Below are positions 17,083 through 33,625 of a stretch of 63,442 nt of DNA, one piece after another (positions within the stretch are counted from its first letter, which is position 1; each line of letters starts with the position of its first letter). Location of the stretch: IMG/VR virus record IMGVR_UViG_3300044641_000353, positions 1 through 63,442 of that record; one strand, given 5' to 3'. Position numbers and translations under genes: made by a program. Origin of the DNA: a virus (lineage: Duplodnaviria; Caudoviricetes). The notes under the pieces are model-generated. The model saw only the letters and a list, made by a program, of their open reading frames with translations, ran no database searches and was not told the DNA's origin.

Positions 17083-17713
17083 CTTCAGGTACGTTTCCGC
17101 GGGTTTCAGAGTCTACGGGTTCTTCAGTATCCAGATCTGTTTCAAATGCAGAGTTATCCGATTGCTGATAATCCGGGATTCCTAGCTGGGCATCTAGGTC
17201 GTCGAGTGGTGTTATGTCTATCACGTCGCTGTGCAGCAGGCGTTTGATCCGCTCTTTGATTGAATTCTCAAGAGACTGGGATGTTGTGTGATGCACAGTA
17301 ATTTCACTGCGTTCAGTAAAAATTCCAATGTCTGAATGCTTGCCGAGTAGCTCAAGAGCCTTGATCTCAATCTTCAGGTCACCGCAATCTGCTAGTTCGA
17401 TTAGCTTGTTTGTAATCAGGTTGCGTGCCTGCTGTGCATCCGCAATAGCCTGAAAGTCGTACTTCTTTAGTATTGCTAGGGCAGCCGCAGCTTGGCCGGG
17501 TGACTTGATGTGCTTGGGTGTCTTGGCTGCTTTGGTAACCAGATCAACGACTTGCTTACCGTCTTTCTCGTTGAAGTCCAGCCCACCGCCAAGTTCTTTA
17601 ATGAAGTCAGCAGTATTTGCAGCAATGGCAATGGCATCCTTCTGAGTCTTTGGGGACTCTTCGGATACGTCAAAAGGAACAGGATGTTCCGCAGTAGGTT
17701 CTAGTTTAATCAC
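17075..17713 (-). CDS. Terminase small subunit (putative)
   Basis: Immediately upstream of TerL; KALELLGK motif. Confidence 0.7.
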   Translation of the reverse strand: MIKLEPTAEHPVPFDVSEESPKTQKDAIAIAANTADFIKELGGGLDFNEKDGKQVVDLVTKAAKTPKHIKSPGQAAAALAILKKYDFQAIADAQQARNLITNKLIELADCGDLKIEIKALELLGKHSDIGIFTERSEITVHHTTSQSLENSIKERIKRLLHSDVIDITPLDDLDAQLGIPDYQQSDNSAFETDLDTEEPVDSETRGNVPEDE

Positions 17714-18013
17714 CGGGTAAGCGCACCAATGAATATGAAGCCTGAAATGTAACAGCGTTTTTAATTTTTTGCAAAAATTTTTTGTGATTAGGGTTTTTAC
17801 TTAGACCCGGGGGGTGTTCCCGAACTTCCCCCAAAAAGGGGGAGGGTGGAATTTTAAAACGCGAGATCGTTTGAGCTCCACAGTGTGTATGGTATTTCTA
17901 GGATTCCTCTTGGGCTCTTTGGTGTCCCCGCCCTCCGTACCCTCTGACCTTTTGACTTTTTTAAATGACCTAACATTGTTACATCAATTCCCTAATTATT
18001 GTTCACGCTACAT

Positions 18014-18042
18014 TTGATTTTCAGTGTTTTTTGTGGTATAAT
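18014..18042 (+). promoter_or_regulatory. Sigma70 early promoter 1
   Basis: TTGATT-17bp-TATAAT with TGTGG extended -10. Confidence 0.8.
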
Positions 18043-18120
18043 ATATTCAAGCAAACAAAATCAGTTTGCCTCAGTTGCCTAGTCTGTTTACTGGGTTTTA
18101 TTAGAAGGTTAGAACGTATC

Positions 18121-18633
18121 ATGGAAAATATTACAGTTACTCAAGTGTCTGAATTGTCATTGTCTGATTTGCGCAACAATGTTGCTGAAGCGGTTGTCAG
18201 GGCTTATGGTGCTGAGCGTGACTATGCTATCAAGGTCTGCGAAGTATTGCCCTTTGCATGGTATCTTGTCGAACACAATGACAAGGGTGAGGATGCAAAG
18301 TTGGTTCACACTGAGAAAAAGGAATTATTCAAAGTTCTCAATAGTGCAAAGCATAGTAATCCATCGACAGTGTGGGCTCGGGTTCGTAAGTATGCACAAG
18401 AGCACATGGAACCCAAAAAGCCCAACGCTGACGGAGTGATTGCACCAACTGACGCACCGGTAGGCGCTCGACAAAACCGCTCGCTAACCTTGCGTTTGGT
18501 TGAGGAATTGACCACGCTATACAAAGCCACAAAGAACGCTGATTCACTCAGCGACAAAGAACGTGATTGCCAAACGCATATTGCATCGGCACTCATGGCA
18601 ATGGGTATTGACTTAGCCACAATTCAAGACTAA
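18121..18633 (+). CDS. First early protein, unknown function
   Basis: Start reassigned to ATG 18121 after the AGAAGGTTAGA leader. Confidence 0.75.
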   Translation: MENITVTQVSELSLSDLRNNVAEAVVRAYGAERDYAIKVCEVLPFAWYLVEHNDKGEDAKLVHTEKKELFKVLNSAKHSNPSTVWARVRKYAQEHMEPKKPNADGVIAPTDAPVGARQNRSLTLRLVEELTTLYKATKNADSLSDKERDCQTHIASALMAMGIDLATIQD

Positions 18634-18694
18634 GGGTAAACCAAGGTAAGGGGAAACCCTTACCTAACATTGTTAGGTCAATTGGAGAAATGTT

Positions 18695-18946
18695 ATGAAA
18701 TACTGTACTCAATCAAGCGAAGTCTATCAAAAGCAAGATCAAGAAATTCAAGCCTTGCTCGATGAAATTCGCGCCACTGTACCGCCATTGGTAGCACTAA
18801 GGGGAAACGTCAGGACTAACCCGCATCGTGCTAGGGTTGCCAAAGTATTCAAAGAGTATCGTTTCCCTGATGCTTACCTGACTTCATTTTGGATTGCGTT
18901 TGCTGAGGGTAAACCTTTCCATCGTAGGTTATGGGATAAAACCTAA
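18695..18946 (+). CDS. Hypothetical early protein
   Basis: GGAG RBS; followed by a terminator. Confidence 0.65.
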   Translation: MKYCTQSSEVYQKQDQEIQALLDEIRATVPPLVALRGNVRTNPHRARVAKVFKEYRFPDAYLTSFWIAFAEGKPFHRRLWDKT

Positions 18947-18965
18947 TCCCTGCTCACTTATCCAC

Positions 18966-18989
18966 AGCCCCGCTAGTCGGGGCTTTTTT
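18966..18989 (+). terminator. Intrinsic terminator
   Basis: AGCCCCG-CTAGT-CGGGGCT followed by a T tract. Confidence 0.88.
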
Positions 18990-19018
18990 GCGTCTGCTCG
19001 CACCTAACATTGTTAGGT

Positions 19019-19097
19019 CGATTTGAATACCAGTTCTCTGGTCGGCAGTAGCAAGTGACCTCGATCTGAATACCAGTTCTCTGGGCGGCAGTAGCAA
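19019..19097. repeat. 36-bp direct repeat, 2 copies, 7-bp spacer
   Basis: CGAT(T/C)TGAATACCAGTTCTCTGG(T/G)CGGCAGTAGCAA at 19019 and 19062. Confidence 0.9.
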
Positions 19098-19099
19098 CC

Positions 19100-19500
19100 G
19101 ATCTAACAATGTTATGTTTTTTCTAATGTTACGAGCTAATGTTACGCACGTAACGCCCCGCAACCCGCATGAAACCTAGAAAGTTATAATGTTACGCGTT
19201 TTTCGGAAAGGGGTACGAGTTACGAAAGTTTTGAGGCAGTGACGTTGCTCAGAAGTGCAAAGTGTATTGCGCAAATAATAATTTTGGAGACCACATACCC
19301 TTTCTTAAAAATCACATAACATTATAACATTACATTAAAAAAACATCATTTACAGAGGAGAACCCCGCGTTACGTTTCACGTTACGTTTACCCCAATTTT
19401 CGTTACATTTCCACTATTTCCATAACGCACCCCCGATTGCTTTCATAACACTGCCTACTTTTTAAGCACCCTGCTCACTTCGTAACTTTCGTCACACCCA
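19100..19500. other. Non-coding iteron-like region, candidate replication origin
   Basis: TAATGTTACG x3, CGTTAC(G/A)TTT x3, many TAAC/GTTA half-sites, AT-rich core. Confidence 0.5.
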
Positions 19501-19512
19501 AGACTAAAGAAC

Positions 19513-19541
19513 TTGACTTTGGCATAACTTTGTGGTATAAT
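19513..19541 (+). promoter_or_regulatory. Sigma70 early promoter 2
   Basis: TTGACT-17bp-TATAAT with extended -10. Confidence 0.88.
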
Positions 19542-19630
19542 ATAAGTTAGATGGGATAAAACCATCTAGGGGCAATCCCGCCCATTAGAAGCACCCTAAC
19601 ATTGTTAGGTCAATTAGAAAGGTTAGATGT

Positions 19631-19855
19631 ATGAATGATTGGAAAGAGTGCCGCAACTGCGGTGACGATATACACAGTGAGCGGTGGTCACTAGGCTACC
19701 GAGTCTGCCTATTCTGCGGTGAAGAAGCCGCCCGAGAAGAACGCATGAGTTGGTGCGTAGTCCAAGAATACGGCAAGGGCAACTACCAACTTGTTACACC
19801 TGCCAGCGCAAGAGTAACGCTCAAGCAAACCAACCAAAAAGAACTGCGGGGCTAA
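19631..19855 (+). CDS. DksA/TraR-like C4 zinc-finger protein
   Basis: CRNCGDDI...ER...CLFC. Confidence 0.65.
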   Translation: MNDWKECRNCGDDIHSERWSLGYRVCLFCGEEAAREERMSWCVVQEYGKGNYQLVTPASARVTLKQTNQKELRG

Positions 19856-19857
19856 CA

Positions 19858-19947
19858 ATGTTAACTAGATGGGAGAAACTCGAACGCATTGTTATTTTGT
19901 GTGCTTGCATAGTGCTTGCACTTGACCTACTTTATTGGAGACCATGA
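19858..19947 (+). CDS. 29-aa membrane peptide
   Basis: MLTRWEKLERIVILCACIVLALDLLYWRP; ATG inside the palindrome; ATGA overlap with the next gene. Confidence 0.65.
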   Translation: MLTRWEKLERIVILCACIVLALDLLYWRP

Positions 19948-20459
19948 TGAGACACGAACATTTACCGGCACTGAAGGGCTACACATCCCAAGCCCAATAC
20001 GATGCACTTAAGTCTATTGAAGAAACCAAGTCGATCAAGGCTTTGGTGTTCTCGGGTTCATCAAGTCGCACCCTCGGTGCTTTGGTGCGTAGCGCATGGA
20101 TAAACACTTTCCCCTACGTTGAGGATGGTATCAAGTACGAGGGTTGGTGCGTAACCGATGCGGGTAAGCACGCAATGGCTATGTTTGCCGAGCGACTACG
20201 CTTGCAGAAAATTGAGGATGACAAGAAAGCGCAGAAACTTACCTTGTATCGTGAGTGCGTGTATCACGCATATACGCTAGAGCGTGACACCCGAGCAAAG
20301 CGTGAGGAGCTTGAGCTTGAGTACAAAAAACTAACTGATGAAATAGAAGAAGCCAAGCGCAAAGTTTCTGCGGCTGGCATGTGGCTGAGCAGTCACGACA
20401 AAACCTCTGTGATCTACGCAGTACGAGAGCAACTGAAGGAGCCTAACAATGTTAGCTGA
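19944..20459 (+). CDS. Hypothetical early protein (possible wHTH plus coiled coil)
   Basis: GGAG RBS; VTDAGK wing-like motif. Confidence 0.65.
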   Translation: MMRHEHLPALKGYTSQAQYDALKSIEETKSIKALVFSGSSSRTLGALVRSAWINTFPYVEDGIKYEGWCVTDAGKHAMAMFAERLRLQKIEDDKKAQKLTLYRECVYHAYTLERDTRAKREELELEYKKLTDEIEEAKRKVSAAGMWLSSHDKTSVIYAVREQLKEPNNVS

Positions 20460-20658
20460 GACCTACTACCTTTGCCGAGTGCCTAGTTACGACATTATTG
20501 TTATGTTTAACGAGAGGGACTACCGATACCAACGCGTAGTCGAGAGCCACCTGAACGTGCCTAACGAGGCAAACAACGTGGTGCTACTAGCGCAGGGTAC
20601 AAAGAAACAGATACGAATGTACTACGATTTAATGAAGGAGGATAACAATGTTAGCTAA
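20449..20658 (+). CDS. Hypothetical early protein
   Basis: AAGGAG RBS; ATG inside the palindrome. Confidence 0.7.
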   Translation: MLAETYYLCRVPSYDIIVMFNERDYRYQRVVESHLNVPNEANNVVLLAQGTKKQIRMYYDLMKEDNNVS

Positions 20659-20821
20659 ATTCCTAATGACAGGATGGAGTAACCGCTTTGGCTATTGGGT
20701 GACTGAGGTTGCCGAGGCTAAAGATATAAGCACCGCAAGGGAACGCTTCTGCCTGAAGTACCCCATGCTGAAGAATGTAAAAGCCCTGCGCCTACGCGCA
20801 CCCGCAGAACTAATGGAGTAA
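20648..20821 (+). CDS. 57-aa hypothetical early protein (not in ORF track)
   Basis: AAGGAGG RBS; ATG inside the palindrome; MLAKFLMTGWSNRFGYWVTEV... Confidence 0.7.
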   Translation: MLAKFLMTGWSNRFGYWVTEVAEAKDISTARERFCLKYPMLKNVKALRLRAPAELME

Positions 20822-20823
20822 TC

Positions 20824-21984
20824 ATGAAAGAAAGACAGACGGGGCTCCATGCCTCAACCTATTACTTGCCACGTATCCGTAGCCACGCAGATGCAAAGGC
20901 ACGCCTCAAGAAAACCAAGCCGATCAGAGGTCGCACGCCTACCAACAACAAATGGGGTGGAACAGTCAACGCTTGCACCCCATTGGGTAGACGCGAGGAC
21001 ATTGACACATACTCAATCCGCGAGGGTGAGAATGGGAATATCGAATTGATTTGCTATACGCGAGCAGTGATAACGTATACGCCCGACAACAAAATCATAC
21101 TCACGCCTCACTTCATGGGACTGATGGAGTCAGGGATGATCGGTCGGGTGCTAGATATACCTGCTTGGCTAGACCGCAAGAAGATCGGCATCATCCTTGA
21201 TGGTGAACGCCATGTGCTTAAACAGAACGGCTCGCTCACATTAAGTTGTGAAGGCGAGTGCCTGAGTGTGGACAGCAAAGAGACCATCTACTCGTACTAC
21301 GTTAACCGCAAGGCATCTAACATTGTTAGGTCTCAATACTCGGAGTTCATCAAGTATTGCAATGGCTTTCTCCAACTGCGCAAGGACATGGACACCAACG
21401 AGATCTCAATATCTCTAACTGAGATTGCCGACTGCATTGGTTACGAATATAGCGAGCAAACGGCATGGCGTAACATAAAGCCGGTGGGCAAAGAGACTGT
21501 GTGGAAGCCCGACCTCAAGCATGCGAGGCACATCGAGTTCAAGCCACAAGGCACAAGGTGTTTGGGGTTGGTGCGAAACAATGCAGTAGAAGGGGACAAG
21601 GCAAACCCAGAGGAGACCCTGTGGTCTGCATACGCTAGGCAGTGCAAGAGTTTTATGGCAGCGATCAGCAACAATCAGGCGGAAGATGGGAAGGTCGACA
21701 ACTATTACCGCATGACCCTAACATTGTTAGGTATGGCGATGCCGTACATACACAGAGCGCCAAAGGAAGGAGAGGATGTGGTTGTGGATATACCCGTAAG
21801 TGCAGTTGATCGCTTGCTGACCAAGATCATGTTGCAGTGGCATAGCGAGGAGATGTTGGAGAGCAGACCACTCAAACCGAATCAGTTGCCCAACGACAAG
21901 TACGATTTGTACATAACAAGGATGCCGACAACGGAGGAGATTGATCGGATACAAAAAGCAACCGACAGGTTGATAATTCTTTAG
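20824..21984 (+). CDS. Hypothetical early protein (386 aa)
   Basis: Long ORF with GGAG RBS; no family recognised. Confidence 0.8.
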   Translation: MKERQTGLHASTYYLPRIRSHADAKARLKKTKPIRGRTPTNNKWGGTVNACTPLGRREDIDTYSIREGENGNIELICYTRAVITYTPDNKIILTPHFMGLMESGMIGRVLDIPAWLDRKKIGIILDGERHVLKQNGSLTLSCEGECLSVDSKETIYSYYVNRKASNIVRSQYSEFIKYCNGFLQLRKDMDTNEISISLTEIADCIGYEYSEQTAWRNIKPVGKETVWKPDLKHARHIEFKPQGTRCLGLVRNNAVEGDKANPEETLWSAYARQCKSFMAAISNNQAEDGKVDNYYRMTLTLLGMAMPYIHRAPKEGEDVVVDIPVSAVDRLLTKIMLQWHSEEMLESRPLKPNQLPNDKYDLYITRMPTTEEIDRIQKATDRLIIL

Positions 21985-22005
21985 TCAGACCCATGACGAA
22001 AGGAC

Positions 22006-22034
22006 TTGACTTTACCATAACATTGTGGTATAAT
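22006..22034 (+). promoter_or_regulatory. Sigma70 early promoter 3
   Basis: TTGACT-17bp-TATAAT, near-identical to promoter 2. Confidence 0.88.
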
Positions 22035-22170
22035 ATAAGCTGATGTGGGGTAGTTGTACCCATATCAGAGAAGTAGCAGTTGAAATCATTGTTAAACACC
22101 CGTGTATCTCACTTCATCAAAGAACTCGGGAACTCGCCTAACAATGTTAGGCACATCAGAAAGGTTAGAT

Positions 22171-23247
22171 ATGTCAGAGATCAAATTCGGTAAATCAATT
22201 ACCCTTAAACAAGCCGCGAACCTGATTCGCACCAATCCTACTACGCGCTTTCTCCTACAAGGTGAGCCGGGTATCGGCAAGTCTTCCCTATTGGAGAGTA
22301 TTGCTAACGGCTTGGGCTACGAGTACGCATACATAGACGTGCCGAACATGGACTTGGGCGACATTGCCATGCCTGTGATCGACCACGATACCAAGACCAC
22401 TAGGTATTACCCTAATGCTAGGTTCAAGATTCATGAAGGCAAACCCCTTGTCATCATGCTTGACGAATTTTCAAAGGGCGCAGACCCCGTGAAGAACATG
22501 CTTCACCCTATGCTAGAGAAGGCAAACCCTAGACTAGGTGACATTCCACTACCGACCGATGGAGACAGACAGACCATTGTCTTTCTTACTGGTAACCTTT
22601 CAACAGACGGCGTGGGCGATAACCTGAAAGCGCATAGCCGTAACCGACTGGTTCCCGTAACGATCAGCAAACCCGATGCCGAGCAGTGGATTGAGTGGGC
22701 TATTGGTAAAGGTATCGAGCCCGAGGTGATTGCGTGGGTCAACCGATTCCCTCATGCAATGGCTAGCTACACAGACGCAGGGCAAGGCGACAACCCCTAC
22801 ATCTTTAACCCTAAGAACTCTCAGAAGGCGTTCGTGTCTCCACGTTCTCTAGAAACTGCATCTAACATTGTTAGGTCACGCAAAGACAACGACCCTGAGA
22901 CTGTGATTGCGGCTTTGTCAGGTGCGGTGGGTGAGTCAGCCGCTCGGGATATGCAGGCATACATTGAGTTCTCAGATCAGTTGCCGACATGGGAGTCAAC
23001 GATCACGCATCCCAAGACAACGGCAATACCTACGTCAGCGGGTGCTTGTGCCATTGTGGTATTCGGTGCGATTGCTCGGGTAGATAAGACAACGATTGCC
23101 CCATTCATGGAGTACTTACAACGATTCGATGCAGAGTGGCAAGCGGTGTTCGCTATCAACATTGCCAAGACACCAAGCAAACAGAGCATTGCGTTTAGTT
23201 GCAAGGCGTTCGCTGATTGGGTGGCTAAGAACCATGACCTTCTCTAG
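22171..23247 (+). CDS. MoxR/dynein-related AAA+ ATPase
   Basis: Walker A GEPGIGKS, Walker B IMLDE, SPRS sensor 2; start reassigned to MSEIKF at 22171. Confidence 0.85.
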   Translation: MSEIKFGKSITLKQAANLIRTNPTTRFLLQGEPGIGKSSLLESIANGLGYEYAYIDVPNMDLGDIAMPVIDHDTKTTRYYPNARFKIHEGKPLVIMLDEFSKGADPVKNMLHPMLEKANPRLGDIPLPTDGDRQTIVFLTGNLSTDGVGDNLKAHSRNRLVPVTISKPDAEQWIEWAIGKGIEPEVIAWVNRFPHAMASYTDAGQGDNPYIFNPKNSQKAFVSPRSLETASNIVRSRKDNDPETVIAALSGAVGESAARDMQAYIEFSDQLPTWESTITHPKTTAIPTSAGACAIVVFGAIARVDKTTIAPFMEYLQRFDAEWQAVFAINIAKTPSKQSIAFSCKAFADWVAKNHDLL

Positions 23248-23482
23248 GATTGGTAACGCATTTGTGCGTAGGCAGACGACAGTAGAGTTGAGTGAGCATG
23301 ACCCAAAGTTTAGGTCACCCGCTCGACTTTACTACACAGGCAAGTATGAATTGGTTGACGCTAAGGATTATCCAAGTGCATTTAGGGAAACCCAAAGAGT
23401 TATATCAATACATGACACGTTTGAAGAGGCGAAGTTATTTGCCGACATGATTAACAAGCAACGACATTTAGAAGGAACCTAA
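23231..23482 (+). CDS. Hypothetical protein
   Basis: 3' part of ORF 23096..23482; the likely start is the internal Met of MTFSRIG (start coordinate approximate). Confidence 0.45.
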   Translation, partial: TMTFSRIGNAFVRRQTTVELSEHDPKFRSPARLYYTGKYELVDAKDYPSAFRETQRVISIHDTFEEAKLFADMINKQRHLEGT

Positions 23483-23484
23483 CA

Positions 23485-24675
23485 ATGTTAGAAGAACGTA
23501 AATTGCAGAAAGCCAAGATCACGCTCATGCGTAATCCTAAGTTCGCCTTACTCCAAGGTGTGATGATGGTTGGTCGTACTAGCGTAGCGGATGACGTACC
23601 CACTGCATGCACCAATGGCAGGGATGAGAAGTATGGGCGTAAGTTTGTGGGGATGCTGACCGATAAGGAACTGGCATTTGTTGTGGCACATGAGGTGTCG
23701 CACAAAATGTATCGGCATTTGACCACATGGCGTAAGTTACATGACGAGGATGCGAGCCGTGCCAACAGTGCTTGTGACTACGTTATTAACTACATGCTCC
23801 ATGAACTCGACCCCAACGAGGATGTGATTGCCATGCCTAGGTTTAAGGATGGGGCGAAGAAGGGTGAGCGCATGGGACTGTACGACCCACAGTACAAGGG
23901 CATGAACTCTAAGCAGATATTCGACTTACTCAAAGATGAACAAGGCGGGGGCGGTCAGGGTGGTGATGGGCTTGATGAGCATGATTGGGATGGTGCAAAA
24001 GGCATGACCGAGGAGGAGAAGAAAACCCTTGAGCGTGAGATCGACCAAGCTATTCGTCAGGGTGTCATGGCACATGAGAAGGCACATGGCAAAGGTGCGG
24101 GTGGTATCGGGCGTGAGATTGATGAACACTTGCAACCCAAAATCAACTGGCGTGAGGAACTACGTGAGTATGTGAAAGCTACATGCCACAACAAGGACAC
24201 ATCGTCATGGCGCAGGGTCAACCGCAGATACTTATCTAGCGGTACGTATATGCCGAGCATGATCGGTGAGAAGGTTGGACACATCGTAGTAGCCATAGAT
24301 ACATCGGGCTCCATCGGTGGGCGTGAGCTTGACGAATTCTTAGCCGAGGTGAAAGGCGTGGCAGAAGAAGTCAACCCCGAGATGGTGGACTTGATCTATT
24401 GGGATGGTGATGTAGCGGGGCATGAGAAGTATGAGGGTGCGGAAGTATCTAACATTGTTAGCTCGACCAAACCCAAGGGTGGTGGAGGCACTGACCCTAG
24501 TTGCGTATCTCAATACTTGCGTGACGAGGCTATCAAGCCCGAGTGCATCATCGTGTTGACCGATGGCTATGTACCCAACTGGGGTAGCGAATGGACTGCA
24601 CCGACTATGTGGGTAATCACAGGAGGCAACGATGCGGTTTCTGACAATGGCAGAACGATTCATATTCAAGATTAA
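23485..24675 (+). CDS. HExxH metallopeptidase-like plus VWA domain protein (DUF2201-like)
   Basis: HEVSH, MIDAS DTSGS, GGGGT, LTDG; paired with the AAA+ gene. Confidence 0.85.
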   Translation: MLEERKLQKAKITLMRNPKFALLQGVMMVGRTSVADDVPTACTNGRDEKYGRKFVGMLTDKELAFVVAHEVSHKMYRHLTTWRKLHDEDASRANSACDYVINYMLHELDPNEDVIAMPRFKDGAKKGERMGLYDPQYKGMNSKQIFDLLKDEQGGGGQGGDGLDEHDWDGAKGMTEEEKKTLEREIDQAIRQGVMAHEKAHGKGAGGIGREIDEHLQPKINWREELREYVKATCHNKDTSSWRRVNRRYLSSGTYMPSMIGEKVGHIVVAIDTSGSIGGRELDEFLAEVKGVAEEVNPEMVDLIYWDGDVAGHEKYEGAEVSNIVSSTKPKGGGGTDPSCVSQYLRDEAIKPECIIVLTDGYVPNWGSEWTAPTMWVITGGNDAVSDNGRTIHIQD

Positions 24676-24685
24676 GGGAGGCAAC

Positions 24686-24931
24686 ATGGTAATAGTAGAC
24701 ATTGGATACAAGAAGTACATCATGCCCAAAGAGAAAGCCATGCAGTTAGTGGAAGTCTTAGAGAGCGCAGAGATATACGAAGAGAAGTATTGGAGTGAGG
24801 ACAGGCGCAAAGAGTTGGGCATGACTGAGACGTACACCTACCATGTGTATGCGAACGAAGCCAACTTCAGTATGCAGATCATAGGCGACAGTAAATATCA
24901 AATGGCTAGATTAGCCGGTAAACCAATTTAA
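24686..24931 (+). CDS. Hypothetical protein
   Basis: Start reassigned to ATG 24686 after AAGGGAGG. Confidence 0.7.
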   Translation: MVIVDIGYKKYIMPKEKAMQLVEVLESAEIYEEKYWSEDRRKELGMTETYTYHVYANEANFSMQIIGDSKYQMARLAGKPI

Positions 24932-24941
24932 GGAGAATGAA

Positions 24942-25790
24942 ATGAGTATTAGTGCATCAGCAGTGTTAGTGGAATTGAACATCAGCGTGTGGCCTGCGTC
25001 AAAGCTAGACCGCGATACAACGGCACAAGTGAATACTGACGCATCAGCAGTCGTAGACGCAGCGCGTGTCCACAAGAACCTATTCGCAGGTACTAACTTG
25101 CGTAAAGAGATCGAGAACTTTGCCGCCAAGGTTAGGCTCTATCACAATCAGCGAACGCTACCATGGGCAGACAAGGGCGAGCGTATGTTGCCGACCGCCT
25201 TGTTTATGGAGTACAAGCAAACCATGAACGCATACGAGCAGACGTTCAATGCAATGTGTGGCTCATTCTTTCACGCATATCCTGAGCTAGTGAAGGATGC
25301 ACCTACGCACCTAGGCAAGATGCACAGAGCCGAGGACTATCCCGAGCTTGAGGATGTGAAGCTGAAGTTTGGGTTTCGTAGAACAGTCAAGCCTGTACCG
25401 GAGGCGGGTGACTTTCGCTTAGACATACCTGCGAATGACTTAGCCGAGATGCAAGCAGAGTTCAGCGCACAACAAGACAACAAGCTAGCTGACGCTATGC
25501 GTGAGCCATGGGAGCGGTTACATGAAATGCTAGTAGGCATGTCTAAGAAACTCGACGACACATCGGGTGGTAAGAAGCGATACCACGACACACTGGTGAG
25601 CAACCCGCTAGAGCTTTGCTCATTGCTTACTAAGATGAACATCACCAACGACCCCAAGTTGGAGGAAGCACGCAAGGAACTAGAGCTAACAATGTTAGGT
25701 ACTAACATAGAAGCAATCAAGGAAGACGAGCATCATCGCACCGAGGTGAAAGCCAAGGTAGATGCAATCATTAAAAAGTTTGAATGGTAA
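24942..25790 (+). CDS. Conserved helical phage protein (DUF3150-like)
   Basis: LVELNISVW...TLPW...LNITNDP-like pattern; AAGGAG RBS. Confidence 0.65.
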   Translation: MSISASAVLVELNISVWPASKLDRDTTAQVNTDASAVVDAARVHKNLFAGTNLRKEIENFAAKVRLYHNQRTLPWADKGERMLPTALFMEYKQTMNAYEQTFNAMCGSFFHAYPELVKDAPTHLGKMHRAEDYPELEDVKLKFGFRRTVKPVPEAGDFRLDIPANDLAEMQAEFSAQQDNKLADAMREPWERLHEMLVGMSKKLDDTSGGKKRYHDTLVSNPLELCSLLTKMNITNDPKLEEARKELELTMLGTNIEAIKEDEHHRTEVKAKVDAIIKKFEW

Positions 25791-25800
25791 GGAGTAGATC

Positions 25801-26688
25801 ATGGATGCAAGCACAGCAATGACATTGAGTAACGTCACCATTAGCGAGAAGCTATTGAATGGTAGGCGTAAGACCGACTTTGATTTCGTAGTGGAGAAAC
25901 CCCTGCACGAGATCATGTGGAAGGTCATCACCGAGAACCCATCATGGGAGTTCAAGGTACAGGAATACTATGGACAAGTTAAGAGTGAGACCATGGACAC
26001 ACGCCCACGGATCACAGTTTCTAAGTTCGCAGTATTCAAAGATGGAGAAGAGATTGGCAAGATCGACCGAGACTACCGCTACGATCAGGGTGGGCATGTG
26101 TTCTCTATCACTAGCAATGCGATCAGGAATGAGCGTGAGCGTATAAGTTCGTATCGCACTAAGGATGCTAAGAAAGCCCTAGCCGCTATCAAGAAAACAT
26201 TCAGTAACAAGAGTGTAGGCGAGCGTGTGAATGAAGCGTTGGCAGAAGCTGTTCGCGTTGTTGGTAGACAAGTTAGTCAAAAGCGCAGTAACCATGGGAG
26301 TGCTTTGCATAGCCTGATACCACTTATGAAAACATTTGCGTTCATTGAGAACAACGATGAGTTTAGGCAGTACGCAGTGAACAACGGACAAGCCCATCAG
26401 CTAGTGAAGTTGCGGGAAACGGAAGCCGAGATGCTTACTGTTACTGACATAGAAAGCAAGTTTAAATCAGACAAGGGTACGAGCCTAGTCTTGCTATCTA
26501 GTGGAAAGTACTTAGTTAAAACAGGTGACGATATACAACTTTACGATGATAATACGCTCCCACTTGACATGAGAGGTAAGTTGGGTATGTTGAAATTAGT
26601 AGAGCCTGAGCAGATGATTGAAGGTGTGGGTTGCCGAGCCACTACCGAGGTCTTTGTCTTACTTACCGCAGAGCGGGAACTGGCATAG
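25801..26688 (+). CDS. Hypothetical protein
   Basis: Long ORF with AAGGAG RBS. Confidence 0.8.
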   Translation: MDASTAMTLSNVTISEKLLNGRRKTDFDFVVEKPLHEIMWKVITENPSWEFKVQEYYGQVKSETMDTRPRITVSKFAVFKDGEEIGKIDRDYRYDQGGHVFSITSNAIRNERERISSYRTKDAKKALAAIKKTFSNKSVGERVNEALAEAVRVVGRQVSQKRSNHGSALHSLIPLMKTFAFIENNDEFRQYAVNNGQAHQLVKLRETEAEMLTVTDIESKFKSDKGTSLVLLSSGKYLVKTGDDIQLYDDNTLPLDMRGKLGMLKLVEPEQMIEGVGCRATTEVFVLLTAERELA

Positions 26689-26720
26689 TGAAACAGGCTA
26701 ACAATGTTAGGAGAATCTAA

Positions 26721-26888
26721 ATGAAAGACGAAATGAAATACCAATCCAAAGTAATCCCCTTGCGGGGTTACGACCACCCCAAATTTAAATGGGTTAACTC
26801 TGCACAAACCGATATACGTAGAACGTGGCGTAAAGCAAGACTACTTATTCGCTTAACCAATGGGGCCGCTTATGAAAGCCGTACTTGA
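26721..26888 (+). CDS. 55-aa hypothetical protein (not in ORF track)
   Basis: AGGAG RBS; MKDEMKYQSK...FKWVNSAQTDIRRTWRKAR. Confidence 0.65.
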   Translation: MKDEMKYQSKVIPLRGYDHPKFKWVNSAQTDIRRTWRKARLLIRLTNGAAYESRT

Positions 26889-27054
26889 GTTTCAGTATCC
26901 GGAAGACGAGTACAAGCTAGAGCATGCACTAAAGGGTACGCAGTACTACGACGCATTGTGTGAGATAGACATAATACTTGCCGCTCCGTATACCAAAGCA
27001 GACGCATACGGCAGGATTAAGAAAGTAATTTTAGAAGTATTGGGGGACACATGA
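26872..27054 (+). CDS. Hypothetical protein
   Basis: MKAVLEFQYPEDE; start reassigned. Confidence 0.65.
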   Translation: MKAVLEFQYPEDEYKLEHALKGTQYYDALCEIDIILAAPYTKADAYGRIKKVILEVLGDT

Positions 27055-27272
27055 GAGGCACTGGATTTGGAAATGTTCTTGCGGGCAACATTGCGGCTCT
27101 CAAAGGACAGAAAAGAAACGAAAAACGCATGAGCCAAAAATGGAAAATGTGTTGGAAATGCCAAAAAGACAAAAGCCCTAATGGTGGGTTTCTCCGAATA
27201 ACTGCGGGGTTACACAAATTTATTTGCAAGGATTGTATGGATGCTAAACAAAAGAAATTGGAGGATGTATGA
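27051..27272 (+). CDS. Small Zn-finger protein
   Basis: CWKC...CKDC. Confidence 0.65.
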   Translation: MRGTGFGNVLAGNIAALKGQKRNEKRMSQKWKMCWKCQKDKSPNGGFLRITAGLHKFICKDCMDAKQKKLEDV

Positions 27273-27445
27273 AAGAAGATGACGATGACATTCAGGAGTA
27301 CGTTAGCACGAAGCAAGTGAACGAGGTCTACGAGAAGATACGCAACAACACGCTAGAAGAAGTAGCGCAAGAGTTTGACAAGATGAAAGCCTTTGGTGAT
27401 ACGTCAGCATCCTTTGCAGTATACGTACGGGGGATGAAAAGATAA
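27269..27445 (+). CDS. 58-aa hypothetical protein (not in ORF track)
   Basis: GGAGG RBS, ATGA overlap; MKEDDDDIQEY...RNNTLEEVA. Confidence 0.7.
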   Translation: MKEDDDDIQEYVSTKQVNEVYEKIRNNTLEEVAQEFDKMKAFGDTSASFAVYVRGMKR

Positions 27446-27705
27446 TGCCAAGACCAAAACCGCCTGAGCCACTTAAAGGTCGCAACATGCGAATGTCTGA
27501 TATTGAGTGGCTTATGTTTATAGAATTAGGAGGAGCCGAATGGCTAAGAAAACATGTTAAGCAAAAAGCAAAGTACCCAAAAGGATACTACGAAGCCCTT
27601 GCCAAACAAGGTGCTGACTCAAGAAGAGCTAATGGCGTGGTGGCCGTTCACACGACTAGACCCGAAGCGATTCCCCAAGCTAAAGAAACCACAACAGGAT
27701 TATGA
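27445..27705 (+). CDS. Ribbon-helix-helix-like DNA-binding protein
   Basis: MPRPK...RNMRMSD...LGGAEWLRK. Confidence 0.55.
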   Translation: MPRPKPPEPLKGRNMRMSDIEWLMFIELGGAEWLRKHVKQKAKYPKGYYEALAKQGADSRRANGVVAVHTTRPEAIPQAKETTTGL

Positions 27706-27721
27706 GGAGGCAACATTTTGA
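27554..27721 (+). CDS. Overlapping 55-aa ORF containing WWPFTRLDPK
   Basis: Open from ATG 27554 to TGA 27721; its stop overlaps the next TTG start. Confidence 0.45.
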   Translation: MLSKKQSTQKDTTKPLPNKVLTQEELMAWWPFTRLDPKRFPKLKKPQQDYEEATF

Positions 27722-27924
27722 CCACAGGAATTGAGTATTTGAAAGTAGAGAAGAAACGCAAGGGGCGGGGGCTTGGTAAGAAACCCGCATTAACTTGCAC
27801 GAGCTTGCGACTGCCGAGAGAGGTGATGGATTATTTCGACACCAACCATCGAATGTCAAAGCAAGCCAAGATGAGAGAAGTTCTTACCGAGTACGTTAAC
27901 AACCAAACAGGAAATAAACCATGA
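27718..27924 (+). CDS. BrnA-antitoxin-like RHH protein
   Basis: GRG...TSLRLPREVMDYF...QAKMREVL; GAGGAGG RBS, TTG start. Confidence 0.6.
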   Translation: MTTGIEYLKVEKKRKGRGLGKKPALTCTSLRLPREVMDYFDTNHRMSKQAKMREVLTEYVNNQTGNKP

Positions 27925-28532
27925 CAATCAAAAAAGTAACCAAAGCCGCACAAGTGCGTAACTACGTAGCCTCTAACCCCAAAGCCAAACCACAAGAGGT
28001 GGCAAACGCTGTCGGTGTTGGACTTCAGTACGTATACACAGTGCTGTGGAACGCAAAGAAGAAAGCCGGAGTTAAAAAGAAGGCTACGCTTACACTGAAA
28101 CGAGAGGGCGCACCGAGAAAAGGCGTGACGCTTGACCTGATTAAAGCAACTAACGAAGCGTTAAAGAAAGAGTTTGAAGCTAAAAGAACGCAAGAGCAGG
28201 TAGACAAGTATTGGAAAGCCGTAGGCGAAGTTCAAAAAGCAGGGCTATCAGCCGCCCGTGTTGCTGAACTTACTGCACAAGCGGGTAAACCAAAACTGCG
28301 TATGCAGGGTAGCGAGCCCACGCAGATCGAAATGTTCGACCCAGTAGACCATCCTGCCCATTACAAAGTAGGTGGAATCGAGACCATTGACTTCATCGAA
28401 GCAAAGAAGCTCGGGTACAACATCGGCAACGTGATTAAGTATCTAACTCGTGCCGACTACAAAGGCAACAAGCTCGAAGACTTGCGTAAAGCTCAGTGGT
28501 ATCTGACTCGTGAGATCAGCATGCTGAAGTAA
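27921..28532 (+). CDS. DUF3310-domain protein with N-terminal HTH-like region
   Basis: DPVDHPAHY...GNVIKYLTRA...EDLRKAQWYL. Confidence 0.8.
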   Translation: MTIKKVTKAAQVRNYVASNPKAKPQEVANAVGVGLQYVYTVLWNAKKKAGVKKKATLTLKREGAPRKGVTLDLIKATNEALKKEFEAKRTQEQVDKYWKAVGEVQKAGLSAARVAELTAQAGKPKLRMQGSEPTQIEMFDPVDHPAHYKVGGIETIDFIEAKKLGYNIGNVIKYLTRADYKGNKLEDLRKAQWYLTREISMLK

Positions 28533-28562
28533 AACCAACCTAACAATGTTAGGGTAATTCCT

Positions 28563-28585
28563 AGCCGCCTACGGGCGGCTTTTTT
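28563..28585 (+). terminator. Intrinsic terminator ending the early region
   Basis: AGCCGCC-TACG-GGCGGCT-TTTTT. Confidence 0.9.
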
Positions 28586-28597
28586 ACGTCTGTACTA

Positions 28598-28625
28598 TTG
28601 ACAAAGTCAAGCGGTGTGCTATATT
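28598..28625 (+). promoter_or_regulatory. Replication-operon promoter with TTGAC-N3-GTCAA palindrome
   Basis: TTGACA-16bp-TATATT, extended -10. Confidence 0.7.
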
Positions 28626-28651
28626 GACTCCATAAACAACTGGAGTATTAG

Positions 28652-28963
28652 ATGGCAACGACACCTGAAGCCAAGGTCAAAGCAAAGATCAAGGCAATCC
28701 TCAAAGCCCACGACATTTACTACGCCATGCCCATCGGTACTGGCTACGGAAGCAGTGGCACTCCTGACTTTCTCTGTTGCATTAACGGCCACTTTGTAGC
28801 TATCGAAGCAAAGGCAGGCAGGGGCGCGGCAACAGCCCTCCAACTCAAAGCACTCGACCACATTCAGCGTAGCGGTGGGCATCCAATGATTATCCGCGAA
28901 GACAACTTTGCGTACCTAGAGCGTGTGATTGAAGACTGTATGAACTTGGAAATTAAAAAATGA
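28652..28963 (+). CDS. VRR-NUC / Holliday-junction-resolvase-like nuclease
   Basis: TPEAKVK...GTPDF...IEAK...LQ. Confidence 0.85.
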   Translation: MATTPEAKVKAKIKAILKAHDIYYAMPIGTGYGSSGTPDFLCCINGHFVAIEAKAGRGAATALQLKALDHIQRSGGHPMIIREDNFAYLERVIEDCMNLEIKK

Positions 28964-33601: not shown

Positions 33602-33625
33602 CAATGTCAAAAGTGGTGTTATATT
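33598..33625 (+). promoter_or_regulatory. Promoter with TTGACAATGTCAA palindrome
   Basis: TTGACA-16bp-TATATT, same architecture as 28598. Confidence 0.72.

What the first reader, a model, noticed from the sequence alone, without database searches (positions are those of the whole stretch)
17971..28551. Seventeen-copy palindromic site system coating only the early region
Seen: TAACAWTGTTA, usually extended to CCTAACAWTGTTAGG, at 17971, 18665, 19005, 19104, 19597, 19853, 20444, 20643, 21318, 21719, 22139, 22863, 23480, 24450, 25687, 26699 and 28541. I found no exact copy in the other ~52 kb, and about 0.03 copies are expected by chance at uniform base composition. The first copy precedes early promoter 1 and the last sits just before the terminator that closes the early region. 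Spacing widens from 0.1-0.7 kb to 1-1.8 kb away from the presumed genome end. Both centre bases (A/T) occur, as expected for a dimer binding dsDNA. Known analogues are mycobacteriophage L5 stoperators and domain-marking palindromes such as matS, parS and SlmA sites. Inference: a protein marks the whole 10.6-kb early domain to silence it, protect first-entering DNA or assist DNA entry. Candidate binders are the 18121 product, the RHH proteins (27445, 27718), the HTH proteins (31580, 35066) or a host factor.
Basis: partly seen in the sequence, partly recalled or inferred. Interest (0 to 1): 0.88.

Follow-up and report, generated by a model that had tools for sequence, protein, structure and literature searches.

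The report
Phage early-region palindromic operator array
An uncultured lake-water phage writes one short mirror-symmetric DNA word 17 times through its early genes only, most likely as docking sites for its own first early protein; such layouts are known from other phages, but this protein and its spacing classes are new.

Summary
All 17 exact TAACAWTGTTA copies lie at the stated coordinates, none elsewhere in the 63,442-base genome (0.06 expected).

The array is conserved across a large uncultured freshwater phage clade. Five of five complete relatives cluster 6-26 copies in about 10-12 kb, and sites inside genes keep their positions.

Close relatives carry other versions: a 2- or 3-base A/T centre, or half-site TGACA. 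These versions are nearly exclusive per genome.

Only one gene tracks the version: the first early gene (18121-18633, 170 aa, no known family). Version and gene lineage agree in 38 of 38 genomes, but with only 1-2 well-supported independent switches. The protein is predicted to be a homodimer.

In 1-base genomes the ATPase peptide SNIVR is held on motif-forming codons. Other genomes scatter synonymous codons.

Best reading (0.5): double-stranded DNA operators of the gene-1 dimer that control early expression. An RNA-level role is not excluded, and no DNA-binding fold was found.

This scan found the same array in other genomes of the clade, and one follow-up report reached the same reading.

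The parts
17971..17981 (.). site 1 (T centre), non-coding; its centre lies 38 bp upstream of the -35 of promoter P1
   Evidence: An equivalent site lies between TerS and gene 1 in 32 of 36 distinct relatives.
18014..18042 (+). P1, a sigma-70-like promoter with an extended -10, in front of gene 1
   Evidence: 10 of 12 matches, TG present; consensus match only
18121..18633 (+). gene 1, 170 aa, no known family: candidate cognate binder of the palindrome
   Evidence: Tracks the site version. Predicted homodimer, score 0.70 against best control 0.00. All-helical model. No Pfam, PHROG, PDB or fold match.
18665..18675 (.). site 2 (T centre), between gene 1 and the 18695 gene
18966..18984 (+). terminator-like hairpin T1, closing the gene-1 operon
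   Evidence: 7 pairs, 6 G-C, T run
19005..19015 (.). site 3 (T centre), non-coding, 21 bp after T1
19104..19114 (.). site 4 (A centre), non-coding, at the left edge of the GTTAC-repeat region
19513..19541 (+). P2, a sigma-70-like promoter (TTGACT-17-TATAAT, TG)
   Evidence: 11 of 12; conserved in relatives of every site version
19597..19607 (.). site 5 (T centre), in the P2 leader about 24 nt before the 19631 start codon
   Evidence: The equivalent leader site matches each relative's own site version.
19853..19863 (.). site 6 (A centre); its ATG starts a short ORF
20444..20454 (.). site 7 (A centre); its ATG is the start codon of the 20449 gene, with GGAG upstream
20643..20653 (.). site 8 (A centre); its ATG is the start codon of the 20648 gene, with AGGAGG upstream
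21318..21328 (.). site 9 (T centre), inside the 386-aa gene (20824-21984)
   Evidence: The same position is occupied in 20 of the 120 loci scanned.
21719..21729 (.). site 10 (T centre), inside the same gene but in another reading frame
22006..22034 (+). P3, a sigma-70-like promoter (TTGACT-17-TATAAT, TG)
   Evidence: 11 of 12
22139..22149 (.). site 11 (A centre), about 20 nt upstream of the likely ATPase start at 22171
22863..22873 (.). site 12 (T centre), inside the AAA ATPase gene, coding the peptide SNIVR
   Evidence: Same position in 31 loci. Motif-forming codons are fixed in 35 of 38 one-base-centre genomes and in 0 of 31 genomes of the other versions.
23480..23490 (.). site 13 (A centre); its ATG is the start codon of the 23485 gene
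   Evidence: same position in 11 loci
24450..24460 (.). site 14 (T centre), inside the 23485-24675 gene (phrog_1314)
   Evidence: Same position in 31 loci. In three mixed genomes the TGACA version sits at the same place.
25687..25697 (.). site 15 (A centre), inside the 24942-25790 gene
   Evidence: same position in 33 loci; codon test
26699..26709 (.). site 16 (A centre), between the 25801 and 26721 genes
28541..28551 (.). site 17 (A centre), after the 27921 gene and 12 bp before terminator T2
28563..28580 (+). terminator-like hairpin T2, closing the early operon
   Evidence: 7 pairs, 6 G-C, T run

Best explanation
The palindromes are the cognate double-stranded DNA sites of the phage's own first early protein (gene 1, 18121-18633). 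The protein binds as a homodimer, one subunit per CTAAC(A) half-site. The A/T-only centre is not read base by base but sets the geometry.

Gene 1 is transcribed first, from the host-type promoter P1. As its product accumulates it occupies one site just upstream of its own promoter and a graded series of sites through the two early operons, at leaders, gene junctions and inside genes. I infer that this occupancy tunes or shuts off host-polymerase transcription of the early region, by roadblock and/or looping. That would be the lytic-phage counterpart of an operator/stoperator network.

Shown: the array, its conservation, selection on the DNA word, the per-genome site versions, and the match between version and gene-1 lineage.

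Inferred: that gene 1 binds the sites, that it binds duplex DNA, and the regulatory outcome.
For: 1. The array is real and sharply bounded. There are 17 of 17 sites in 16.7% of the genome. Across 36 distinct relatives, mean site density falls steadily from 4.19 per 2 kb at gene 1 to 0.29 at 14 kb, with 0 sites in 225,446 bases on the terminase side.

2. It is conserved. Five of five complete relatives hold clustered arrays, and the reversed control pattern gives 0. Intragenic positions recur in 20-33 of the 120 loci scanned.

3. Selection acts on the DNA itself, by site version. The ATPase peptide SNIV(R) is present in all versions. In 35 of 38 one-base-centre genomes it is held on motif-forming codons. 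In 0 of 31 genomes of the other versions does it form the motif; those use scattered synonymous codons.

4. Versions are nearly exclusive per genome. Of 80 loci, 38 have a 1-base centre, 26 a 2-base centre, 3 a 3-base centre, 2 the TGACA half-site, 8 are mixed and 3 have none.

5. Gene 1 is the only window gene that follows the version.
- tblastn hits occur in 16 of 25 distant same-version loci (mean 48% identity) against 1 of 31 other-version loci (28%).
- TerS, TerL, ATPase and equally fast-evolving genes are equally similar in both groups.
- The gene-1 tree separates the versions: the 1-base group is one side of a branch (support 88/81), and the deep split has support 100/99.
- Version and gene-1 type agree in 38 of 38, 36 of 36 and 36 of 36 genomes.
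- The one covered locus without an array (L197) has a non-homologous first gene.

6. A homodimer is predicted, with score 0.70 against a best control of 0.00. In the tool's calibration this mark was reached by 20 of 30 solved same-chain pairs and 1 of 23 single chains. The three runs share at least 84% of contacts, and the partner pLDDT is at least 75.

7. The signatures point to duplex DNA.
- The logo is symmetric and carries nothing beyond +-7.
- A site sits between TerS and gene 1 in 32 of 36 upstream regions, mostly 28-45 bp upstream of the -35, outside the P1 transcript.
- Centres avoid TpA steps: TA occurs 0 times among 333 two-base centres, and 32 of 44 three-base centres are AAA, AAT, ATT or TTT.
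- Wobble-compatible single variants on the sense strand are not enriched (16 against 18).
- The RNA hairpin is weak: -4.4 kcal/mol for the 15-mer and -1.1 for the 13-mer.
Against: - No DNA-binding fold or family was found for gene 1. Pfam and PHROGs gave nothing. The PDB profile search gave nothing. Foldseek gave no match at E <= 0.001 for the whole model (PDB and BFVD) or for the confident N-terminal domain (pLDDT 92; PDB).
- The N-terminal domain is a bundle of three long helices, not a classical helix-turn-helix.
- The family is near neutral (pI 5.3-8.8).
- The co-variation rests on few independent events: 1-2 pairs on well-supported branches and 3 on all branches, so the sign test cannot reach 0.05. 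Control-gene trees need only 2-3 changes for the same labels.
- Other families exclusive to the 2-base version exist, for example a 160-aa ORF upstream of the ATPase in 16 loci.
- Mixed genomes are unexplained. L192 interleaves 10 one-base sites with 7 TGACA sites but has only one gene-1 homologue.
- Half of the 2-base sites (157 of 314) and 60 of 340 one-base sites have their ATG as an ORF start. That would fit translational control on RNA.
- No window site overlaps a core promoter, so simple promoter occlusion is not the mechanism.
Confidence: 0.5

Rival explanations
1. Same specificity factor, but acting on RNA. The palindromes work as small hairpins in early mRNA, with a stem CCUAAC/GUUAGG and a loop of 3-5 A/U. 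The gene-1 protein binds them to repress translation or trigger decay, as with coat-protein operators of RNA phages or T4 RegA (both recalled).
For: - Sites sit at translation starts: 4 of 17 in the window, 157 of 314 two-base sites and 60 of 340 one-base sites in relatives.
- The versions differ by what would be loop length, a natural specificity variable for hairpin binders.
- The sense strand prefers A-rich centres: AA 248 against TT 56.
- The weak best fold hits of the N-terminal domain include ribosomal protein S20 chains, at E about 3, which is not significant.
Against: - Both centre letters are used within one genome (8 T and 9 A). Inside ORFs T outnumbers A (62 against 24), so the strand bias follows coding context.
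- The stem sequence, rather than just pairing, is invariant.
- Wobble-compatible variants are not favoured (16 against 18).
- Hairpins are weak, and only about 65% of sites have the outer C-G pair.
- The conserved site upstream of P1 lies outside the predicted transcript.
Confidence: 0.15
2. Same binder and duplex sites, but a different job. The graded array serves the physical handling of first-entering DNA: a binding ratchet that helps pull the genome in, protection of the entering end, or compaction and marking of the early domain.
For: - There is a sharp left boundary at gene 1 and a steady fall in site density with distance from it, across 36 distinct relatives.
- Gene 1 is the promoter-proximal first gene, next to the terminase genes and to a G-run/C-run stretch that could be a packaging site.
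Against: - No termini are mapped. The record is an arbitrarily opened circle.
- The only relative classed as having terminal repeats carries its array 22-33 kb from the contig ends.
- Sites are placed precisely at leaders and gene junctions, which a purely mechanical role does not require.
Confidence: 0.12
3. The sites belong to a host protein (a regulator or nucleoid protein), and gene 1 merely co-varies with host range.
For: - Gene 1 has no recognisable DNA-binding fold.
- The independent switches are few.
Against: - Site versions differ among phages whose ATPase, TerL and TerS are equally similar (about 84%, 82% and 61% identity to the window in both groups).
- Each of the versions seen (1-, 2- and 3-base centres, TGACA, none) has its own gene-1 lineage.
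- Arrays are absent from the distant named relatives DSL-LC04 and 023Pt_psg01.
Confidence: 0.07
4. The palindromes are mainly junction or boundary sequences. The compact word TAA..ATG..TAG supplies a stop and a start, and as a shared short homology it promotes cassette shuffling of early genes, like the promoter-stem-loop cassettes of T4-type phages (recalled).
For: - In the first set of loci, 85 of 365 A-centre sites end a long frame with their TAA, and 80 start an ORF with their ATG.
- Early gene content is mosaic among relatives.
Against: - This does not explain sites deep inside conserved genes that are held by synonymous-codon choice.
- It does not explain the site upstream of P1, the per-genome exclusivity of the versions, or the link to gene 1.
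Confidence: 0.05
5. The palindromes are N4-type hairpin promoters for a virion RNA polymerase (recalled: stem of 5-7 bp and a 3-nt loop on the template strand).
For: - A stem of 6 bp with a 3-nt loop is possible.
- The phage shares an ATPase/phrog_1314 gene pair with N4-like phages, at about 24-31% identity.
Against: - No RNA polymerase was detected. The 2031-aa protein has no PHROG hit or PDB hit. The 1946-aa protein matches DarB-like/ejection families.
- Strong host-type promoters head the early operons.
- Both orientations are used, and loops of 4-5 occur in relatives.
- Many sites coincide with start codons that have Shine-Dalgarno sequences upstream.
Confidence: 0.02

Closest known systems
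Stoperators and operators of Cluster A mycobacteriophages (L5 gp71-type repressor). PMC9283540: abstract seen. PMC6550527: passages seen.
   Same: - Many near-identical copies of one short site per genome, including sites away from promoters.
- Bound by a phage-encoded protein.
- Site motif and protein vary together among related phages.
- Proposed to block elongating host polymerase.
   Different: - Stoperators are asymmetric 13-bp sites read by a monomer, mostly in one orientation relative to transcription, and are spread across the genome of temperate phages.
- Here the site is a strict palindrome with a predicted homodimer, and is confined to a graded 10-kb early domain.
- The phage has no detected integrase.
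- The protein has no helix-turn-helix match.
Conserved inverted repeats (CIRs) bound by the phiC31 repressor
   Same: Highly conserved copies of one inverted repeat, mostly in intergenic parts of the early region, bound by one phage protein.
   Different: phiC31 is temperate and the binder is its immunity repressor. I have not verified numbers or positions. No spacing classes or intragenic, codon-held sites are known to me there.
KorB operators (OB) of plasmid RK2, and ParB-parS or N15 SopB centromere sites (recalled).
   Same: Perfect palindromes of 13-16 bp scattered over a replicon domain, some near promoters and some far from any. They are bound by a dimer encoded on the same element and silence or organise DNA.
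   Different: KorB/ParB proteins carry ParB-type domains, and gene 1 matches no Pfam family. No ParA-type partner was found.
Lambda Cro and its operators (recalled).
   Same: The first lytic gene product is a small homodimer that binds palindromes and turns early transcription down.
   Different: Cro uses a few operators that overlap promoters. Here there are 17 sites and none overlaps a core promoter.
MtvA antitoxin of plasmid pPAD8 (PMC11826091; passages seen).
   Same: EMSA there shows a MazE-like protein binding the very palindrome TAACATTGTTA in duplex DNA, so this word can be a protein-binding duplex site.
   Different: It is a single autoregulatory site on a Pseudomonas plasmid, with an unrelated protein fold. 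The identity of the word is probably coincidence.

Membership tests
L5-type stoperator system | asymmetric site with an orientation bias relative to transcription | tested here: not met
   The logo is symmetric over 13-15 bp. Both centre letters are used.
L5-type stoperator system | sites distributed over the whole genome (both arms) | tested here: not met
   17 of 17 sites lie in 16.7% of the genome. There are 0 sites in 225,446 bases of terminase-side flank in relatives.
L5-type stoperator system | the binder is the immunity repressor of a temperate phage, with a helix-turn-helix domain | tested here: not met
   No integrase was found in PHROG scans of 30 ORFs. Gene 1 has no HTH family or fold match.
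L5-type stoperator system | bound protein stops elongating RNA polymerase | not testable with these tools
   Needs in vitro transcription or RNA-seq.
L5-type stoperator system | site motif and binder co-vary among relatives | tested here: met
   Site version and gene-1 lineage agree in 38 of 38 genomes, but with only 1-2 well-supported independent switches.
ParB-parS / KorB-OB | binder carries ParB-type N-terminal and HTH domains | tested here: not met
   No Pfam match for gene 1, nor for 34 family members at E <= 1.
ParB-parS / KorB-OB | palindromic sites clustered on the element that encodes the binder | tested here: met
N4-type hairpin promoters | virion-packaged giant RNA polymerase encoded by the phage | tested here: not met
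   The 2031-aa and 1946-aa proteins give no polymerase match.
N4-type hairpin promoters | hairpin with a 3-nt loop, purine centre on the template strand, in one orientation | tested here: not met
   Both centres are used on one strand. Relatives have what would be 4- and 5-nt loops.
Host domain-marking sites (matS, SlmA sites, Noc sites) | the binder is a host protein and the sites are independent of phage genes | tested here: not met
   The site version follows a phage gene among otherwise equally similar phages. Host genomes were not scanned.
RNA operator hairpins (coat-protein or RegA-type translational repression) | element overlaps the ribosome-binding site or start codon of the regulated genes | tested here: inconclusive
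   This holds for 4 of 17 window sites and for 157 of 314 two-base sites in relatives. It does not hold for the intragenic sites or the site upstream of the promoter.
RNA operator hairpins (coat-protein or RegA-type translational repression) | structure conserved with wobble or compensatory tolerance | tested here: not met
   Wobble-type variants 16 against non-pairing 18. The stem sequence is invariant.

The most novel reading that the evidence does not exclude
A lytic phage clade runs an immunity-like specificity system. The first early protein has a fold not seen before and reads a strict palindrome whose A/T centre length (1, 2 or 3 bases) or half-site defines mutually exclusive classes among near-identical phages. 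Its graded array, densest at the DNA that carries gene 1, would then do one of two things. It could time the shut-off of each early cassette. Or it could act on the entering genome itself, by ratcheting or protection. Class diversification would be driven by competition between co-infecting relatives rather than by lysogenic immunity.
Probability: 0.15. Interest if true: 0.85.

Novelty: new variant of a known kind. Interest (0 to 1): 0.6.

Why it matters
The clade is common in lake-water data. The ATPase search confirmed 280 IMG/VR stretches as relatives. Twenty-four lake-water metagenome runs hold at least part of this stretch, two of which may be the source of the DNA. Gene 1 has 592 homologues, all unnamed. 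I found no cultured relative.

The array gives a handle on regulation in phages that cannot yet be grown. It names a protein-site pair that can be tested in vitro without the host.

Natural variants supply a ready-made specificity series: centres of 1, 2 or 3 bases, and A-to-G in the half-site. If the pair is confirmed, this would be a new DNA-recognition fold with orthogonal site classes.

It would also be an example of operator networks in a lytic phage, with sites held inside genes by codon choice.

Tried and rejected
- **Near-identical DNA search** of 17500-29500 in GenBank phages: no match.
- **Named distant relatives** DSL-LC04 and 023Pt_psg01 (TerL 57% and 52% identity): no array of any palindrome. 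They were useless for co-variation.
- **Fold and family searches for gene 1**: nothing from PHROGs, Pfam, the PDB profile search, Foldseek PDB (whole protein and N-terminal domain), Foldseek BFVD or the ESM Atlas. The Atlas nearest named cluster, DUF3102 at 0.85, is a lead only. The search for longer, fused forms also found nothing.
- **Virion RNA polymerase idea**: no support.
- **GTTAC/ATAACA repeat region (19100-19500)** as part of the same system: rejected. It is conserved in every site version and keeps GTTAC in genomes whose palindrome is TGACA.
- **A second binder in the mixed genome L192**: the only extra family next to gene 1 looks like a tandem ribbon-helix-helix protein by eye (no family search was run). 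It also occurs in pure one-base genomes, so it does not explain the mixture.
- **Sequencing runs**: no RNA holder is listed and all 24 runs are kept as contigs only. Read laying was therefore not used, and neither expression nor termini could be examined.
- **Independent-pairs test**: too few pairs to be significant.
- **Literature**:
  - No paper holds the motif in a phage context: 17 papers hold the word, 15 are listed, and one is relevant only by coincidence.
  - Search 70 returned no paper.
  - Search 83 returned 14 papers; the titles and abstract openings of the 12 listed describe no such array.
  - Search 82 listed 10 of the 11 papers on the distant relatives; I did not open them.
  - Supplements were closed and not seen.
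- **Rows dropped**:
  - Sites within 30 bases of a locus end and duplicate contexts were dropped before the counts.
  - Loci with fewer than 4 sites were labelled 'none', and those under 80% one version 'mixed'.
  - In one search only hits covering more than half of the query were counted.
  - Of the 280 ATPase relatives only the best 80 were fetched.

Full report
**Observation.** The window is the complete record of this genome (63,442 bases, one contig), so the scan is genome-wide. All copies lie in 17971-28551, which is 16.7% of the genome.

Thirteen of the 17 copies carry the full 13-mer CTAACAWTGTTAG and six carry the full 15-mer. Eight have T and nine have A at the centre. Relaxing to two mismatches adds only background-level hits outside the region (42 found, about 20 expected). 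The word is therefore all-or-none rather than degenerate.

**Setting.** The genome is a tailed phage.
- Portal, large terminase and a putative small terminase run leftward from 17713.
- A rightward block starts at 18121. It holds small ORFs, an AAA ATPase, a phrog_1314 protein, a DUF3310 protein, DNA polymerase, exonuclease, helicase and primase.
- Large virion and ejection proteins fill the rest.
- PHROG scans of 30 ORFs found no integrase.
- Consensus scans place host-type promoters with an extended -10 at 18014, 19513 and 22006, and terminator-like hairpins at 18966 and 28563.

The array therefore spans two predicted early operons: P1-gene 1-T1, and P2/P3-T2.

Of the 17 sites, eight are non-coding. 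Four have their central ATG as a start codon with a purine-rich stretch upstream. Five lie inside ORFs, in two different reading frames, so they are not a protein repeat.

**Relatives.** GenBank phages hold only distant kin: TerL is at most 57% identical and the ATPase at most 26%.

Many carry arrays, up to 24 copies of the 11-mer in 12.3 kb, at G+C contents from 41 to 55%. Of these 120, 108 could be oriented by protein matches to the window's 9-38 kb region.

In five of five complete relatives the word is clustered in about 10-12 kb, with 26, 15, 6, 11 and 14 copies. The reversed control pattern gave 0 in all five.

Mapping sites through protein alignments shows that intragenic sites keep their place:
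- window position 22868 (ATPase) is occupied in 31 of the 120 loci;
- 24455 in 31;
- 25692 in 33;
- 21323 in 20;
- further conserved positions, absent from this genome, lie at 22456, 24746, 28913 and 30293.

The logo is symmetric. C at -6 and G at +6 are present in about 90% of sites, the outer C/G in about 65%, and there is nothing beyond +-7.

**Site versions.** A search with the ATPase confirmed 280 relatives. The best 80 (81-100% identical) were fetched with 10-kb flanks. About half of them have no copy of the window's word. Instead they carry arrays of the same half-site with a 2-base centre (up to 20 copies) or a 3-base centre, or of the half-site TGACA with a 2-base centre.

Per genome the versions are nearly exclusive: 38 one-base, 26 two-base, 3 three-base, 2 TGACA, 8 mixed and 3 without an array.

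Centres are almost only A/T and avoid TpA steps:
- one-base centres: A 203, T 125, G 8;
- two-base centres: AA 248, TT 56, AT 13, TA 0;
- three-base centres: mostly AAA, AAT, ATT or TTT.

**Selection on the DNA word.** At the ATPase site the peptide SNIV(R) is present in every version. In 35 of 38 one-base genomes it is spelled with the motif-forming codons, while the next two codons vary freely. In 0 of 31 genomes of the other versions does it form the motif, because the same residues use scattered synonymous codons.

At the phrog_1314 site, three mixed genomes carry the TGACA version at the same place, at the price of changed residues.

This is direct evidence that the nucleotide word, matched to the genome's own version, is what is kept.

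**The cognate gene.** I compared every window gene with distant same-version loci and with other-version loci. Only gene 1 (18121-18633) differs between the two groups. It has hits in 16 of 25 same-version loci at 48% mean identity, against 1 of 31 other-version loci at 28%.

TerS, TerL, ATPase and phrog_1314 are equally similar in both groups. So are genes that evolve as fast as gene 1 (25801, 20824, 27921).

Further findings on gene 1:
- Every locus that covers the place has an ORF of 157-219 aa there.
- 35 distinct proteins form one family, and the locus without an array (L197) has an unrelated first gene.
- The family tree separates the versions. The one-base group lies on one side of a branch, the three-base genome is its long-branched sister, and the two-base and TGACA genomes lie across a deep split.
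- Version and gene-1 type agree in 38 of 38, 36 of 36 and 36 of 36 genomes on three backbone trees.

Caveats:
- The labels also follow the backbone fairly well, needing only 2-3 changes on control trees.
- Only 1-2 independent pairs sit on well-supported branches, so no sign test can be significant.
- De novo clustering finds other families exclusive to the two-base group.
- Mixed genomes are not explained.

**The protein.** Gene 1 has 592 homologues in metagenome proteins, none named. It has no Pfam or PHROG family, no PDB sequence relative and no fused longer form.

AlphaFold2 gives an all-helical protein (pLDDT 76):
- an N-terminal bundle of three long helices, which folded alone reaches pLDDT 92 and pTM 0.77;
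- a disordered linker;
- a C-terminal helical hairpin.

Foldseek finds nothing at E <= 0.001 in the PDB or BFVD. The invariant residues are W47 and R87, within a W85-x-R-V motif.

A homodimer is predicted with score 0.70 against a best control of 0.00. The mark was reached by 20 of 30 solved same-chain pairs and 1 of 23 single chains in the tool's calibration. The runs share at least 84% of contacts and the partner pLDDT is at least 75. My own alignment was used, so these counts hold only roughly. A dimer fits a palindrome, but the fold gives no independent support for DNA binding.

**DNA or RNA?** For duplex DNA:
- The sites are symmetric.
- Both centre letters occur in one genome.
- A site lies between TerS and gene 1 in 32 of 36 distinct upstream regions, mostly 28-45 bp upstream of the -35 and thus outside the predicted P1 transcript.
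- Centres are free of TpA steps, as expected if groove shape matters.
- Wobble-compatible variants show no excess (16 against 18).
- The RNA hairpins are weak.

For RNA:
- Half of the two-base sites (157 of 314) and 60 of 340 one-base sites supply an ORF's start codon.
- The sense strand prefers A-rich centres.

Much of that bias follows coding context. Inside ORFs T outnumbers A, 62 to 24, and in the remaining sites the ratios are 124:70 and 79:54. The word also contains TAA, ATG and TAG, so it fits compact gene junctions. I rate duplex DNA as more likely, but the RNA role is not excluded.

**Function.** Across 36 distinct relatives, site density falls steadily from 4.19 per 2 kb around gene 1 to 0.29 at 14 kb. 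There is no site in 225,446 bases on the terminase side.

No window site overlaps a core promoter. Relative to the promoters, sites lie:
- about 73 bp upstream of the P1 start;
- about 55 nt into the P2 leader;
- about 100 nt after P3;
- about 52 bp upstream of the -35 of the next promoter, at 28598.

The most economical reading is a self-encoded operator network that lets the first early product tune or close the early operons, by roadblock or looping. A mechanical role on entering DNA is possible, but it depends on unmapped termini.

**Comparison with known systems.**
- The nearest described system is the stoperator network of Cluster A mycobacteriophages (PMC9283540, abstract; PMC6550527, passages). 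It shares many copies, co-varying motifs and elongation block. It differs in that its sites are asymmetric, read by a monomer, oriented, genome-wide, and found in temperate phages.
- The phiC31 repressor repeats, RK2 KorB operators, ParB-parS and lambda Cro are recalled analogues, not checked here.
- One paper shows a MazE-like antitoxin binding this very 11-mer as duplex DNA (PMC11826091, passages). That is probably coincidence, but it shows the word can be a protein site.
- I found no paper that describes this array.

**Earlier notes of this scan.** After reaching the above I looked them up. First readers noted the same array in at least seven other genomes of the clade. One follow-up report (e1-6235702) also concluded that the sites are docking sites for the first early protein. 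My results agree with it.

**Verdict.** The feature is real, conserved and selected. It is best seen as a new variant of a known kind of phage operator array, with an uncharacterised binder family and unusual spacing classes.

My estimates:
- that the sites are functional targets of a phage-encoded specificity factor: about 0.85;
- that gene 1 is that factor: about 0.6;
- the full best explanation (duplex binding that controls early expression): 0.5.

Noticed in passing
window 19100-19500: A 400-bp non-coding stretch rich in GTTAC(G)/ATAACA repeats, with an AT-rich core and a conserved 'aacccgcatg' box. It is conserved upstream of P2 in relatives of every site version and does not change with the palindrome version. 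It is a candidate replication origin with iterons for some conserved protein.
   Followed up: partly
window 19020-19054 and 19063-19097: Two 35-bp direct repeats (33 of 35 identical) lie exactly between palindrome sites 3 and 4, just after terminator T1.
   Followed up: no
window 17790-17860: G-runs and C-runs in the divergent gap between the small terminase gene and gene 1. This is a possible packaging (pac/cos) site; termini are not mapped.
   Followed up: no
L192:1979-15601: One relative interleaves 10 one-base-centre sites with 7 TGACA two-base sites, but has a single gene-1 homologue of the TGACA-linked lineage. L181, L195 and L187 also mix versions. Relaxed specificity, or a second binder, remains unexplained.
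   Followed up: partly
L192:3129-3638, L134:6639-7118, L136:5711-6172, L182:6012-6467, L199:415-921: An accessory 152-170 aa family sits next to gene 1 in some relatives. By eye, from the alignment, it looks like a tandem ribbon-helix-helix protein. It is absent from the window.
   Followed up: partly
L198 and L167: These relatives have few standard sites but several CTAAC-N3-GTTAG or CTAAC-N4-GTTAG copies with other centres (ATA, TAT, TTT). The minimal half-site may therefore be CTAAC. Neither locus covers the gene-1 region.
   Followed up: partly
window 27921-28532: The last early gene encodes a weak MarR-like N-terminal region (PHROG E 8.6e-5) fused to DUF3310 (Pfam E 3.4e-20). It is conserved in all site versions, so it is not the version determinant.
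   Followed up: partly
L153, L158, L190, L178, L196 (region upstream of gene 1): In several two-base genomes the single site upstream of P1 has a different centre length (3 or 1 bases) from the rest of the array. This might set a different affinity for autoregulation.
   Followed up: no
window 22018-22028 and 33599-33609: Two-mismatch half-palindromes overlap the spacer of P3 and the -35 of the promoter at 33598. Similar TAACA words sit in the P2 spacers of some relatives, but they do not change with site version.
   Followed up: partly
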